Shown here piece after piece: positions 6,363 through 59,638 of a stretch of 64,000 nt of DNA. This DNA is from Octopus vulgaris. Its lineage: Eukaryota. Made by a program: the position numbers and the translations under genes. Under the pieces are notes generated by a model. The model worked only from the letters and a program-made list of their open reading frames with translations. It was not told where the DNA came from and made no database searches. Numbering within the stretch: position 1 is the stretch's first letter; every line of letters starts with the position of its first letter. The stretch spans positions 14,074,001 to 14,138,000 of the forward strand of contig OX597842.1 of assembly GCA_951406725.2 (NCBI GenBank). The letters run 5' to 3'.

Positions 6363-6434
6363 AGATATCTTAGCCAGGGCAAATTATTAAAGGTTCCTAC
6401 TTGAATTTTGTCGATGTTATTTCCATTCAAATAT
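6363..6434 (-). CDS. LRR exon, C-related (72 bp): YLNGNNIDKIQVGTFNNLPWLRY(L)
   Basis: gttacag|A TAT TTG ... TAT CT|gtaagt. Confidence 0.87.
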
Positions 6435-7694
6435 CTGTAACATAAAAGTTTAGCTGATGAGAGAAGGTAGGACGGAGTTTTATTGTAAAATATTATTATC
6501 ACCGAAATGACTATAAAGATTATTGCTAGTGATTAGAAAATGTATCGAACTTATTTATAATAAAAACTGAAATATTATGGAAAAAACAATAACTTCGGGT
6601 AGCGGAATGAATGTAGATGAGGAAGAAGCTGATGATAATATTAAGGTATTAAGGAGGATGATGGGGATGAGGATGGAGGTGGTGTTTGTAGTGGAATCGA
6701 TGAAAATGAGGGAATAGCAGAGTACATGAGAACTGTGGTAGTTTTGATGAAGATAATATTTTTGATGATGTTGGTGATAAAGATTGTGAAAACGATGATG
6801 ATAAAGGCAATTATTATTATTATTATTATTATTATTATTATTATTATTATTATTATTATTATTATTATTATTATTATTATTATTATTATTATTATTATTA
6901 TTATTATTATGAAGATAGGAACAGAGAAATAATACGTATAAGAGGAAGGGTTAGGACTGGAAGAAAAAGGAGAATATTAGAATGAGAAGAAGAATAAGAA
7001 GGTAGAAGAAGAAGAAGAAGAAATAGAAGAAGAAAACGAAGAAGATGGAGGAGGAGGAGGAGGAGGAGGAGAAAAGTTCTCCCTCATATATAAATGACGA
7101 ATAGGCCAGACATTTTGAAAAACTTTGAAAATTTGAATGGCGTACAAAAATACAAATATGCAAAATTTGGTCCTACATATATATTTAGGAGTGAAAGTTA
7201 TATTAAAACGAATAAGGATATAGTGATGATGATGATGGTGATGGTGATGTTGATGCTGAGAAAGTTGATGATGTATATATATATATATATATATATATAT
7301 ATATATATATATATATATATATATATATACTGAGAGAGAGAAGTACACAAACATATGCACACATTACGACAGACACATACATAGTCAGACGTACCCCTAT
7401 TCACGTGCATTCCCATTGATACACACTGAGACTCTCACCCATACACACACATGGCGAGACAATGAATGCGATTTAGAGGGAAATTTAGCGAGAGAAACAG
7501 GGTAAGATAGAAATAGACACTCATATCTACAGACATTCACTAACAACCTTAGCTTTCTATAAAAAGGAGTGAGAATGTAAAGAGAGAGAGAGAGAGAGAG
7601 AGAGAGAGAAAGACGGAATGATAATGGAAATAAGGAGCTTTTGAATATTTAGTAACATATTTTCAATGAAATATTAACAACTCATCTTACTTAC

Positions 7695-7766
7695 AGAGAG
7701 CTTAACTGGAACAGATTACCAAAGGTTCCTACTAGAATTTTGTCGATGTTATTTCCATTCAAATAT
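7695..7766 (-). CDS. LRR exon, C-related (72 bp): YLNGNNIDKILVGTFGNLFQLSS(L)
   Basis: gttacag|A TAT TTG ... TCT CT|gtaagt. Confidence 0.87.
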
Positions 7767-9289
7767 CTGTAACATAAAAGTTTAGCTGATGAGATAAAGT
7801 AGGACGGAGTTTTATTGTAAAATATTATTATCACCGAAATCTCTATAGATTATATTGCTAGTGATTAGAAAATGTATCGAACTTTTTTTATAATAAAAAC
7901 TAAAATATTATGGAAAAACAATAACTTCGAGTAGGGGAATGAATGTAGATGAGGAAGAAGCTGATGATAATATTAAGGTATTAAGGAGGATGAAGGGGAT
8001 GAGGATGGAGGTGGTGTTTGTAGTGGAATCGAGGAAAATGAGGGAATAGCAGAGTACATGCGAACTGTGGTAGTTTTGATGAAGATAATATTTTTGATGA
8101 TTAGATTGTGAAAACGATGATGATGAAGGCAATTATCATTATTATTATTATTATTATTATTATTATTATTATTATTATTATTATTATTATTATTATTATT
8201 ATTATTATTATTATTATTATTATTATTATTATTGTTGTTGTTGTTGCTATTATTATTATTATTATAGGAAGAAAGTAAGAATAAGTATAAGAAGGAGAAA
8301 AAGAAGAAAAATAAAAATGAAGGAAAAGACAATTAATAGCTGTATTAAATGAAAAATTGCTGAAGAAAAAATAGAAGAAGAAGGAAAACAGATAAAAACA
8401 ACTACAACAACAACGAGCAAATGCTACAATAAAAGCGTGGTAAGGACAATTAATATAGACTTACAAAATATAGCCTCTCACCCCTGAAAAGCTTATTACT
8501 GAGCTAGAGTTATGAAGAACAGAACTAGTAGATAAAATTTAAAAAATTTAAACATTTCAGATATGCAGCGCTCCTTGGGTGAGATACCGGGTGTAAACAT
8601 GTTAAAAGGCTCAAGTAAGGAGATATAATATTTAACATAAATAAATAAGAAATAAAGGGAATAAATGTATGCTTGTAAATTTCATAATAAGGGCTTTTAT
8701 AATATGGGTCAGTTCAACAAGATTAATTAAAACTTATTAATAACATTATATAAATATTCAAATTTATTGCCCACAAAACCGGAAGTAGGTTTTTAATATA
8801 GGGGTGGAGAGCTAAAGAGCAGGTGGGAATAATATGAATTAGTGACATACTAAAGCGAAACCATGTAGAAATAAGTATGTATTTTTTACAGTGATTTAGA
8901 ATGTAGCTTCAGGTTTGGTTCAAATAGTGCAATTAATATAAAGGTGAAAAGCTAAGGAAAAACTAGGAAGAATCTAAATTCAGGAAACACAAAGAATGAG
9001 ACCCGGTAAATGTAAATATATATGTTTTCGGTGAATTAGAAAATAGTAAAAATCTATGGTTTTTATAGGGTAATTCAATATTAAGGCAAATAAAAATTAT
9101 CATTATCATAAATGAATAATTTAATACTTAGATATTACTTCATGCAAGGAGTCGAAGGGAGATAATAGTTAAGTTACTAGAAAGCAAGACAAATGGGTAA
9201 TACATGGACTAGATATAAATGTGCAGATTAGAGCCTTAGGAGAGGTGTGCAACGTATGAAGTAAAGATATTATACTAAATAATACCCCC

Positions 9290-9705
9290 ATGTCTAACAC
9301 CCATGGACATGCTTACAAAGTCAGAAAACAGCACAGCTCCCATGACTTCCGGAAACATTTTTTTCACGCTAAGAGTTGCTGAAGCATGGAACAAACTGCC
9401 GACATCAGTTGCTAGTTGTTGGAACATCCTTCAAAACGTCCATGCTTCCTGAGATTTGCCAACACTACACCTGATTTTCTTCCCTCCATACACACGCAAG
9501 CATGTATCTGACTTATACACTGTTCACTTTCCAAACATTTGTACATTACTGCATATTCTTTATACGCACTTGTGACAAGTTGTGGTGCACCTGAGCACTG
9601 TATACAATAATTGCATAATAATAATAATAATAATAATAATAATAATAATAATTATTATTATTATTATTATTATTATTATTATTATTATTATTATTATTAT
9701 TATAA
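9290..9705 (+). mobile_element. CR1 LINE 3' fragment with (TAA)n/(ATT)n tail
   Basis: THGHAYKVRKQHSSHDFRKHFFTLRVAEAWNKLP, the typical CR1 ORF2 C-terminus. Confidence 0.75.
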
Positions 9706-56855: not shown

Positions 56856-58001
56856 AATTATCCAGAAATAGTTTAAAATTTATACATATTATATACTGAA
56901 ATACTGACTCATCAGATGGTATCTGTGAATATTTATTAATTGGTATATACTGGTATTTAATAAAGGAATACTGAAGTAAAAGAACATATATATTAATTAA
57001 ATTATAAACTAAGCAGTTTATTATAAGTAGTGAATATACCAGTATTGTTTTATATAAACCAAGTATGAATTTATAGATGTGAAAAATTACATTTATTTCA
57101 TAAATACATAAAGGCTAATTATATAAAAATAAAGGAAGAAAATAATCGGGTAGGGCAGAACACCCTAGAAAAAGAATAAAATAGCTTAATCACTATTGTA
57201 TGGTGAGATGGAAGCATGATAACGTGTATGTAGTTTATTAACAACAACAGAGAAGACTTATATAAAATGTATAATAATTCAAAATATATTAGACTAAAAA
57301 TTATATATTTACTTATTTAGCTAGTATCAATAAGACTGATACCTGAGTATTAGCTAAAGGAATATTTAAGTTATAGGACATTCTAATTTTCACTATTTTT
57401 TAAACTATAGTTTTAAGAAGTTATCATTATTACTCCAATCATGACATTTCTAGTTTCTTAGGGGTACTTAATTAGAAGGGTTATTTATATAAAGGCCCTT
57501 ATAAATATATTAAGATCAGGAGGGTAGAGCTGTTTAAGAAAGGGATAAATCAAGTAATTGCTAAAGATCATTTCTAATAACATTGCCTTATTGTATAAAG
57601 TTAAAATTTAGGGTAATCATGTAGATTATTATGAATGATATTCTAACAAAAAGGATAAACCTTATTTGAATACTTTTGGGTATATACCAAATTTTAACAT
57701 TTAGAGGGGGGAAAAGAAAATTACAAAGAAATAGCTTAATATTTATACCTATTATTTATCTAAATATTAACTTATTAGATGGTTTCTATGAAGATTGATC
57801 GATTAGATCTAACAGATATTTAATAAGGGAGCACTGAGGTTAAAGAACATGCTAACTATATACAAATTTAAATATATTGAACTATTTTAAGCTGTGGATA
57901 TATATATATATATATATATATATATATATATATGATCAAATGCTTGCACAAAATACTTTCTTTAAAGTATCACGCTCTTATATATTCCAACATTATATAT
58001 T

Positions 58002-59353
58002 CCGACCGGTTTCCCTAACATCAATAATCAGCAAGATGTTCGAAACCATCCTTAAGAAAAGTATGATGCTCCTCCTCCTAAACACAGCCTCTATCTCTGA
58101 TTCCCAACACGGCTTCGTGCCGAAGAGATCATGCTTGACCAACTTACTAGTAATGGAAGAATTGGTGACGCGCATCCTCGATGATACTGATGCTGTTGAC
58201 ATCGTTTTATTGGACTTTGCCAAAGCTTTTGACTCGGTAAACCACCGCCTATTACTTGTCAAGCTTCAAGCATATAGTTTCCATCCGATATTGTACGATG
58301 GGTTGGTGCCTTCCTCTCAGATCGCTCCTTCCAAGTCCAAGTTAATGGTTCGCGGTCCGACGTCTCCAGTGCGAGCAGTGGCGTGCCTCAAGGTTCAGTG
58401 CTTGGGCCCTTGTTGTTCTTAGTCTTCATAAATGACTTGTCCGACGACCTCACGCAACACACCCTTCTATTTGCCGACGATATCAAACTGGTCGCTCCTC
58501 GCGGTGATATAGAGGATCTTCGTCGATGCCTCCACCAAATTTGGAAGTGGTCTAACGATTGGGACCTGTGTCTGAACGTGTCAAAATGCTGTCATCTGCC
58601 TGTTGGCTCTCCTCCTGCAACTCAACTTGATTTCGAGCCGGGTCGTCTGCTGCTGGAGAGGACCGATCAGGTAAAGGACCTGGGTATCTTGGTGGATTCC
58701 TCCTTTTCGCCTTCGGCCCAGTGCGTCCATGCTGCCAACAAAGCACGCGGAATTCTGTTCTTGATTCGACGGTCATTCGGAATGCTCACAGCAGCCATAT
58801 TCCTACCACTCTATGTCACGCTGGTGAGACCCATATTGGTATGGGATTCAAGCCTCTTCTCCTTATCTCCTCAAAGACATACAGCATCTCGAAAGAGTCC
58901 AGAAGCTGGCTACCCGCATGGTTCATGGTCTCAAAAATTTGTCCTACGAAGAAAGGCTGAGGACGCTCGACCTTTATTCTCTTGAAAAACGCCGCCGCCG
59001 TGGTGATCTCATTCTCGCCCACAACATCATAAGCGGAAAGTGTAACCTCTCGAAAGAGCTGTTCTTCACTCCTGCTCCAGAGCGTCGGCTGCGGGGTAAT
59101 TCCGAAAAGCTCTACCTGCGACGATTTCATCTCAATCGAAGGAGAGGAGCTTTCTCCGTCCGGGTTGCGGATCCGTGGAACAAGCTGCCAGACGAGATGG
59201 TGAAGATGCCGACGACCGCTCGGTTCAAAGACTCCATTGACCACAAGTGGCCTGAACTCTTTACATGAACACCCTGTACCTAACTCCATGTCCCCCTACA
59301 TGGCCTTGCTATTTGCTTTTGAGCCAAATTAACTAACTAACTAACTAACTAAC
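58002..59353 (+). mobile_element. CR1-clade LINE (duplicate)
   Basis: ORFs 57877, 58383 and 58918; same tail and insertion site. Confidence 0.93.
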
Positions 59354-59569
59354 ATTTAGCAATGCGTTCGCACTCACTTTCACAGTCACAGAAAAACAAT
59401 GACACAAGCCGTTGGAGACAGAGAAGGAGAGTAAAAAACGAGACAAAGGGTATGACGTGGCAGTATAGGAAAGAATGGGTGACGGTGCCTCAAACGAAAT
59501 AGGGGAATCATTACATACTTGGAAATATATCTTCAATGAAATACTATAAATATAAATGAATCAACTTAC

Positions 59570-59638
59570 AGAGTTGTTAAGCCGGAAAGAGTTTGGAAGA
59601 TTTGTGCTTCGATCTTCATGCCATTACCACCCAAATAC
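59570..59638 (-). CDS. LRR exon, class A (69 bp): YLGGNGMKIEAQIFQTLSGLTT(L)
   Basis: ttttacag|G TAT TTG ... ACT CT|gtaagt; LRR consensus one residue short. Confidence 0.82.

What the first reader, a model, noticed from the sequence alone, without database searches (positions are those of the whole stretch)
6363..59638. Every possible exon junction is in frame and encodes the same Leu: full combinatorial splicing is possible
Seen: all exons end in CT or TT and begin with A or G, so any donor-acceptor pair gives CTA, CTG, TTA or TTG. This is the structural Leu in the middle of LxxLxL. The intron falls inside the concave beta-strand, so each junction combines the xx residues of one exon (RY, SS, TS, ED, TT, RT) with the x-L-xx residues of the next (YLNG, NLSF, YLGG, YLNE, YLND, DLGG). 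Inference: exon skipping would create new binding-surface strands rather than just shorter proteins, a Dscam-like route to isoform diversity. Symmetry alone does not show that skipping happens.
Basis: partly seen in the sequence, partly recalled or inferred. Interest (0 to 1): 0.72.

Follow-up and report, generated by a model that had tools for sequence, protein, structure and literature searches.

The report
Octopus receptor with 48 plug-in exons
These short exons each encode one repeat of the outer arm of an octopus adhesion G-protein-coupled receptor; any two can be joined in frame, but that is a common design of such genes, the RNA seen here is mostly spliced in order, and the arm likely gains its variety by copying and losing exons in the genome and by fast change on its predicted binding face rather than by Dscam-style mix-and-match splicing.

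Summary
Observation confirmed: 12 minus-strand exons (72 or 69 nt, phase 2-2); all 66 ordered pairs give Leu. It is no sign of shuffling by splicing. The exons are copies of one ancestor, the Leu is structural, 176 of 179 neighbouring junctions in seven family genes are Leu, and the same layout is published for human, rodent and algal LRR genes. The exons belong to an LRR adhesion GPCR (LRRCT, GPS, 7TM downstream) with at least 48 intact LRR exons and 10 dead ones over 152 kb. RNA contigs: at the 3' end of a 95-98% identical sister copy both neighbour junctions appear in 4 of 4 runs and no skip junction does. In mid-array 16 of 21 junctions fit a neighbouring pair (null 43 of 133); 5 do not, so minor skipping or other haplotypes remain open. 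No Dscam-type docking site was found. Concave-face residues change fast (pN/pS 3.5; core 0.26). Best reading: a germline, accordion-like, diversifying receptor arm, mostly spliced in order. The scan has noted this family before on other DNA.

The parts
59570..59638 (-). LRR exon, 69 nt (YLGG type), ends CT, starts G
52842..52913 (-). LRR exon, 72 nt (YLND type, ends ...EE), ends TT
50473..50544 (-). dead LRR exon (acceptor and 3' half decayed); coordinates approximate
47827..47898 (-). LRR exon, 72 nt (YLNE type)
41559..41630 (-). LRR exon, 72 nt (NLSF type)
39050..39118 (-). LRR exon, 69 nt (YLGG type)
32336..32407 (-). LRR exon, 72 nt (YLND type, ends ...ED), ends TT; weak Pfam LRR_8 match E 0.0014
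29957..30028 (-). dead LRR exon (acceptor reads GG, 3' half decayed); coordinates approximate
27320..27391 (-). LRR exon, 72 nt (YLNE type); weak Pfam LRR_8 match E 0.0014
22182..22253 (-). LRR exon, 72 nt (NLSF type)
19625..19693 (-). LRR exon, 69 nt (YLGG type)
12478..12549 (-). LRR exon, 72 nt (DLGG type)
7695..7766 (-). LRR exon, 72 nt (YLNG type); its counterpart in the sister gene is spliced to the next exon in 4 of 4 runs
6363..6434 (-). penultimate LRR exon, 72 nt (YLNG type); counterpart spliced to the last LRR exon in 4 of 4 runs
19469..60278 (.). tandem units of about 20 kb, 90-97% identical including introns, each carrying YLGG, YLND, a dead exon, YLNE and NLSF

Best explanation
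The exons are the 3' quarter of an array of at least 48 one-repeat exons that build the leucine-rich outer arm of an octopus adhesion GPCR, and the in-frame Leu junction likely matters because it lets whole repeats be copied, lost or swapped in the genome, while transcripts likely include most exons in order. Shown: exon layout, tandem blocks, 10 dead exons, downstream LRRCT, GPS and 7TM exons, repeat numbers of 12 to 50 in sister genes, spliced neighbour junctions, excess amino-acid change at the five concave-face positions. Inferred: unequal crossing-over between the near-identical blocks changes repeat number; splice-site loss drops a repeat without breaking the frame; diversifying selection retunes the binding face against a changing ligand (foreign cells, microbes or a co-evolving self marker); ligand binding or pull on the long arm signals through the GPS-cleaved receptor as in other adhesion GPCRs.
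For: Gene identity: GPS Pfam E 5e-15 and 7tm_2 E 3e-11 on exons 37-48 kb downstream on the same strand; related octopus models hold LRR_8, GPS and 7tm_2 in one chain; signal peptide plus LRRNT exon found for three sister genes. Germline turnover: 58 exon copies, 48 intact, 36 distinct; 20-kb units 90-97% identical; intact counts 48+, 34, 27, 12, 50 in five genes; 54 GPS-exon matches in the genome; six dead copies share one donor change, one has lost its donor, two are decayed. In-order splicing: both neighbour junctions in 4 of 4 runs, 0 skip junctions among the 4 joints listed, and one 284-nt contig running unbranched from the penultimate repeat through the last repeat and 162 nt onward; 16 of 21 mid-array joints fit a neighbouring pair at 2 or fewer mismatches in 50 nt against 43 of 133 for arbitrary pairs (Fisher p 2e-4); 161 of 186 donors are GTAAGT or GTAAGC and the shortest intron is 205 nt; four O. 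sinensis isoform models share the same LRR exons; the O. bimaculoides model's repeats best match the C8 gene's exons 39, 43, 44, 46-50 in order (8 of 12 repeats). Selection: among copies 6 or fewer nt apart, concave positions show 90 amino-acid-changing versus 10 silent changes, pN/pS 3.5 against 0.26 for core and 1.1 for other positions (p 2e-11 against all silent sites, 0.011 against their own, 0.014 against flanking intron). Generic layout: PMC6642158, PMC11378527.
Against: 5 of 21 joints fit no neighbouring pair (3-6 mismatches), including a like-to-like junction seen in both organisms; one run has a YLND-type donor on a 3' YLNG-type acceptor and another a 'goes back' joint. Only 15 of 27 joints and 12 of 18 'letters between' rows were shown. 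Contigs drop rare variants, the runs are only guessed to be RNA and come from other animals, and the 3'-end test used the sister copy, not the window. Database models are predictions, not cDNAs. The 5' end of this gene is cut by an assembly gap. The selection test uses spanning-tree edges, not a true tree, and two of the five positions flank splice sites. The ligand is unknown.
Confidence: 0.7

Rival explanations
1. Mostly in-order inclusion plus a real minority of skipped isoforms (NLRP3-like or brown-algal ROCO-like), adding length and strand variants on top of germline variation.
For: 5 of 21 joints unexplained by neighbours; a C-type to C-type junction in runs X5 and X2, whose flanks in X2 match two identical exons of the sister gene separated by two others; a YLND-type donor before a 3' acceptor in X6. 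Skipping of symmetric LRR exons is published (PMC6642158: exon 5 skipped 33%; PMC11378527), and adhesion GPCR genes give 19 variants on average (PMC6667449, abstract).
Against: Each case can come from another haplotype or an unmapped paralogue (7 of at least 54 family genes mapped); no skip joint at the 3' end in 4 runs. Compatible with the best explanation rather than exclusive of it.
Confidence: 0.2
2. Dscam-like system: regulated, combinatorial or mutually exclusive exon choice gives each cell its own receptor arm.
For: Perfect frame and Leu symmetry; very large array; concave-face divergence; a recurring intronic 11-mer 26-29 nt after the donor in 57 of 81 diverged exons.
Against: Neighbours are spliced together; junctions are enriched for neighbours where free choice predicts about 32%; no complementary docking site better than antisense control in three complete genes and no flank pairing or hairpin signal; the one 11-mer complement in the last intron is absent in 2 of 6 genes and mismatched in 2; strong uniform splice sites.
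Confidence: 0.06
3. The array size is partly an assembly artefact or a neutral, runaway duplication with no adaptive role.
For: Near-identical blocks, a gap at the array's 5' end, and a 95-98% identical inverted copy 1 Mb away; 10 dead exons.
Against: Units differ by 3-10%; the sister's 7TM is only 48% identical, so it is a different gene; the C8 gene has 50 intact, all-different exons; core positions are under purifying selection, pN/pS 0.19-0.26; exons are spliced in RNA contigs.
Confidence: 0.04

Closest known systems
Octopus-specific adhesion GPCR expansion, group 3 (Ritschard et al. 2019, PMC6408891; passages read); database labels 'ADGRG6-like', 'ADGRA2-like', 'TLR5', 'SLITRK4'
   Same: GPS plus adhesion 7TM, LRR in some members (5 of 22 there), tandem clusters, positive selection reported for some members
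   Different: The passages read report no exon-level array, no 48-50-repeat arm and no splicing analysis; database models carry about 2-14 repeats; membership in group 3 was not tested by tree
Exon-modular LRR genes: human NLRs and typical-class LRR genes (PMC6642158), gonadotropin receptors and brown-algal ROCO genes (PMC11378527)
   Same: One repeat per frame-preserving exon, 72 nt, phase 2, border at a fixed place in the beta strand; in ROCO also selection on the concave side
   Different: Here the arm sits on an adhesion GPCR and has 3-5 times more repeats; skipping is reported there and is unproven here
Arthropod Dscam1 (mechanism recalled; mentioned in PMC11378527)
   Same: Tandem array of duplicated, frame-compatible exons coding a surface receptor's binding part
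   Different: Dscam picks one exon per cluster; here neighbours are joined and no docking site was found
Variable lymphocyte receptors of jawless fish (fold matches; mechanism from PMC6642158 introduction and recall)
   Same: 24-residue LRR modules, variable concave face, similar fold
   Different: VLRs are assembled somatically from cassettes; these exons have intact splice sites inside one germline gene and are joined as RNA

Membership tests
Adhesion GPCR | GPS motif before TM1 | tested here: met
   Pfam GPS E 5.3e-15 on exon C29:14036701, with the HL/TSF cleavage signature visible
Adhesion GPCR | Secretin-type 7TM | tested here: met
   7tm_2 on three exons, best E 2.7e-11
Adhesion GPCR | LRR arm and 7TM in one transcript | tested here: inconclusive
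   Same strand and order, no other 5' end between; an RNA contig links the last two repeats to the cap exon in the sister copy; a related model has all parts in one chain; no full-length cDNA for this gene
Adhesion GPCR | Autoproteolysis and tethered-agonist signalling | not testable with these tools
   inferred from the motif only
Octopus group 3 adhesion GPCRs (PMC6408891) | Falls in the octopus-specific class B clade | not tested
   No tree with the paper's sequences; its supplements were not read. All close hits are octopus
Exon-modular typical LRR genes | One 23-24-residue repeat per phase 2-2 exon, border inside the strand | tested here: met
Dscam1-type hypervariable splicing | Mutually exclusive choice: neighbours never joined | tested here: not met
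   Neighbour junctions in 4 of 4 runs and
Dscam1-type hypervariable splicing | Docking-site and selector base pairing | tested here: not met
   (intron ends of three complete genes; no site clearly better than antisense control across genes)
Dscam1-type hypervariable splicing | Many non-neighbour junctions per individual | tested here: inconclusive
   5 of 21 unexplained in mid-array, 0 skip joints at the 3' end; contigs only
VLR-type somatic assembly | Incomplete germline gene filled from flanking cassettes | tested here: not met
   Sister genes are complete in the genome: signal peptide and LRRNT, spliceable repeats, cap, 7TM; feature recalled
VLR-type somatic assembly | Cell-specific DNA rearrangement | not testable with these tools
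   needs single-cell or tissue long-read DNA

The most novel reading that the evidence does not exclude
Octopuses run a large variable-receptor system built on adhesion GPCRs: dozens of genes with 12-50 plug-in LRR exons whose binding face is under diversifying selection, whose arrays differ between animals, and which add a real layer of exon skipping, so that tissues or cells show different arms for immune or self/non-self recognition.
Probability: 0.2. Interest if true: 0.8.

Novelty: new variant of a known kind. Interest (0 to 1): 0.42.

Why it matters
The junction symmetry itself is ordinary. The gene is more interesting. An adhesion GPCR with 48-50 separately encoded repeats, fast change limited to the binding face, and a family of more than 50 genes looks like a receptor set chasing changing ligands. 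Molluscs have no known adaptive-type receptor (recalled), and octopus arms must tell self from non-self, so these genes are concrete candidates. Database models capture only a fraction of the repeats, so the arrays are easy to miss. One matched long-read experiment would settle whether splicing adds diversity.

Tried and rejected
Dscam-type docking site: one 11-mer complement in the last intron looked promising (17 of 33 exons) but is exact in 2 of 6 genes, mismatched in 2 and absent in 2; duplex energies did not beat antisense controls across genes and flank pairing and hairpins did not differ from shuffles. GRL101/LGR or Toll-like receptor identity: dropped when GPS and 7tm_2 exons appeared. 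LRR-like frame at window 1243-1166: no proper acceptor, tblastn E 0.08, no exon-like cover at the matching place in the sister copy; treated as chance or decayed. The run search listed no holder on record as RNA; runs guessed as RNA were used, and X1 and X4 gave no joints among those shown. No RNA was laid on the window itself, so its middle exons are untested. Database isoforms as skipping evidence: four O. sinensis isoforms differ only at the 3' end; LRR-region searches returned mostly unrelated LRR proteins and only four other octopus entries or fewer per search. The AlphaFold model is unusable beyond residue 170 (pLDDT under 50), so the Cys-rich and SEA-like linker domains were not identified. 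One false exon call (window 50546) was removed before all counts. Literature searches for a report of these arrays or their splicing found only PMC6408891 on the family; its supplements were not read and may list these genes.
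Full report
Check of the observation. A profile built from nine seed exons found 12 intact minus-strand exons between 6363 and 59638, two dead copies, and one more intact exon at 276-205. Nine are 72 nt and three 69 nt; all are phase 2-2. All 66 ordered pairs give a Leu codon. A model of a close octopus relative puts that Leu at the centre of each LRR strand, and the LRR part matches typical LRR folds such as the Nogo receptor, LRRTM2 and lamprey VLRs. 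The exon at 276 ends in AT, so 'all exons' holds only inside the given range.

Is the symmetry surprising? No. In seven family genes mapped here, 176 of 179 neighbour junctions are Leu, two Ile and one Val. The exons are copies of one exon, a CT ending yields Leu with any next base, and the residue is structural. Hoss et al. (PMC6642158; parts 1-2 of 8 read) report strict exon modularity in human LRR families, with the border fixed inside the beta sheet, also for the typical class. Teng et al. (PMC11378527; passages) report 72-bp phase-2 one-LRR exons in brown-algal ROCO genes and cite phase-2 introns in gonadotropin receptors. Both also report real alternative splicing of such exons, so skipping is plausible but has to be shown.

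What the gene is. The window lies at C29:14074001-14138000 of a 2.8-Gb genome. Downstream on the same strand come an LRR cap exon, Cys-rich exons, hormone-receptor-like and GAIN-like exons (labels by resemblance, recalled; no Pfam match), a GPS exon (Pfam E 5e-15) and 7tm_2 exons. The closest proteins are octopus models labelled ADGRG6-like, ADGRA2-like, TLR5 or SLITRK4; one holds LRR_8, GPS and 7tm_2 together. Upstream the array continues to C29:14226404 and is then cut by an assembly gap: 58 exon copies, 48 intact and 36 distinct after removing one false call. Three sister genes show the signal-peptide and LRRNT exon. The GPS exon has 54 matches in the genome. Intact repeat counts are 34, 27, 12 and 50 in four sister genes, and 5 and 10 in two partly covered ones. 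This fits group 3 of Ritschard et al. (PMC6408891; passages), an octopus-specific adhesion GPCR expansion with LRRs in 5 of 22 members; I did not test this by tree.

RNA evidence. No listed run is on record as RNA, but X2, X3, X5 and X6 show cover on exons and joints with canonical intron ends, as spliced RNA would. All are assembled contigs from other animals. On a 10-kb stretch just upstream of the window with 11 intact exons and one dead one, many joints looked like skips (15 of 27 joints and 12 of 18 extra rows shown). The exon ends have up to 25 near-copies, so I compared each of the 21 distinct joints with every neighbouring pair in the seven genes. Sixteen fit at two or fewer mismatches in 50 nt; arbitrary non-neighbour pairs fit in 43 of 133 cases (Fisher p 2e-4). 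Five do not fit. A like-to-like junction occurs in both organisms. These five may be skips, other haplotypes or unmapped paralogues. On the 3' end of the sister gene, which is about 91-98% identical to the window, both neighbour junctions appear in 4 of 4 runs, no skip joint appears among the 4 joints listed, and one 284-nt contig runs unbranched from the penultimate repeat through the last repeat into the cap exon. Against this reading, X2 alone has a joint that goes back to an earlier exon type, and X6 has a YLND-type donor on a 3' acceptor; 15 loose ends were not shown. The window's own exons were not covered by a read test.

Dscam-type machinery. Neighbours are joined, so the array is not mutually exclusive. 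Donors are strong and uniform (143 GTAAGT and 18 GTAAGC of 186) and the shortest intron is 205 nt. No docking site or flank pairing beat controls. An 11-mer recurs 26-29 nt after the donor in 57 of 81 diverged exons; the same procedure finds 23-36 of 81 in farther windows, so it is enriched but may be partly inherited flank.

How diversity is made. The DNA shows block duplication, dead exons (six with one shared donor change, one with a lost donor, two decayed, one with an extra base near the gap) and different repeat numbers between sisters. Sisters are also mosaics: the 15.1-Mb gene shares the arm but its TM5-7 exon is 48% identical, while another shares the 7TM (97-100%) but not the cap (77%). 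Among exon copies six or fewer bases apart, the five concave-face positions around the junction show 90 amino-acid-changing and 10 silent changes (pN/pS 3.5), the core 0.26 and other positions 1.1. The excess holds against own silent sites (p 0.011) and flanking intron (p 0.014), with the limits stated above. The repeats of an O. bimaculoides model best match C8 exons 39, 43, 44 and 46-50 in order, the other four matching other genes better, which suggests that order is kept between species. I infer a germline accordion under diversifying selection, read out mostly in order; the ligand and signalling steps are inferred from family knowledge.

Novelty. Eight paper searches found no description of these arrays or their splicing; PMC9068888 passages gave no GPCR or LRR mention; of PMC6667449 I saw the abstract only. 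Supplements were not read. The scan has three earlier notes on the same family on other DNA; my reading and selection test came before I saw them. Verdict: observation real, symmetry ordinary, Dscam-like reading unsupported but minor skipping open; the receptor family itself is a new variant of a known kind.

Noticed in passing
+26 to +29 after the donor of most LRR exons, e.g. after window 47827, 41559, 39050, 6363 (minus strand): A recurring intronic 11-mer (TATTTCATTGA) in 57 of 81 diverged exons, absent after the last LRR exon; 23-36 of 81 by the same method in farther windows. Possibly a splicing enhancer; no pairing partner found.
   Followed up: partly
G000:C29:15066863-15233357 (+), L061-L080: Inverted sister gene 1 Mb away whose arm is about 91-98% identical to the window, introns included, but whose 7TM exon is 48% identical; other sisters show the reverse. 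Arms and signalling halves seem to be exchanged between genes.
   Followed up: partly
G000:C8:79128857-79258665 (-): A family gene with 50 intact, all-different LRR exons; the best target for an unambiguous skipping test.
   Followed up: partly
G000:C29:14226053 (-), L019: A 73-nt exon copy with intact splice sites and one extra base, 3.5 kb from an assembly gap: a sequencing error or an exon that has to be skipped.
   Followed up: no
L101:3181 to 1814, run X2: A 'goes back' joint in one of two runs of the same study, suggesting an extra exon pair in that animal, i.e. array polymorphism; the window gene has two and the sister three exons of this type.
   Followed up: no
G000:C29:14883813-14888801, 14143100, 14163894, 14177639: A duplicated acceptor with a short decayed exon start 76 nt upstream of many YLNG-type exons; also weak matches near window 7845 and 6516.
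   Followed up: no
window 1243-1166 (-): An LRR-like open frame without a proper acceptor inside the last array intron; probably chance or decayed.
   Followed up: partly
window about 37900-38800 and 58280-59300: Reverse-transcriptase-like (LINE-type, label recalled) fragments carried along in the tandem units; very long GAA and AGT tracts at 5243-6115 and 23298-23742.
   Followed up: no
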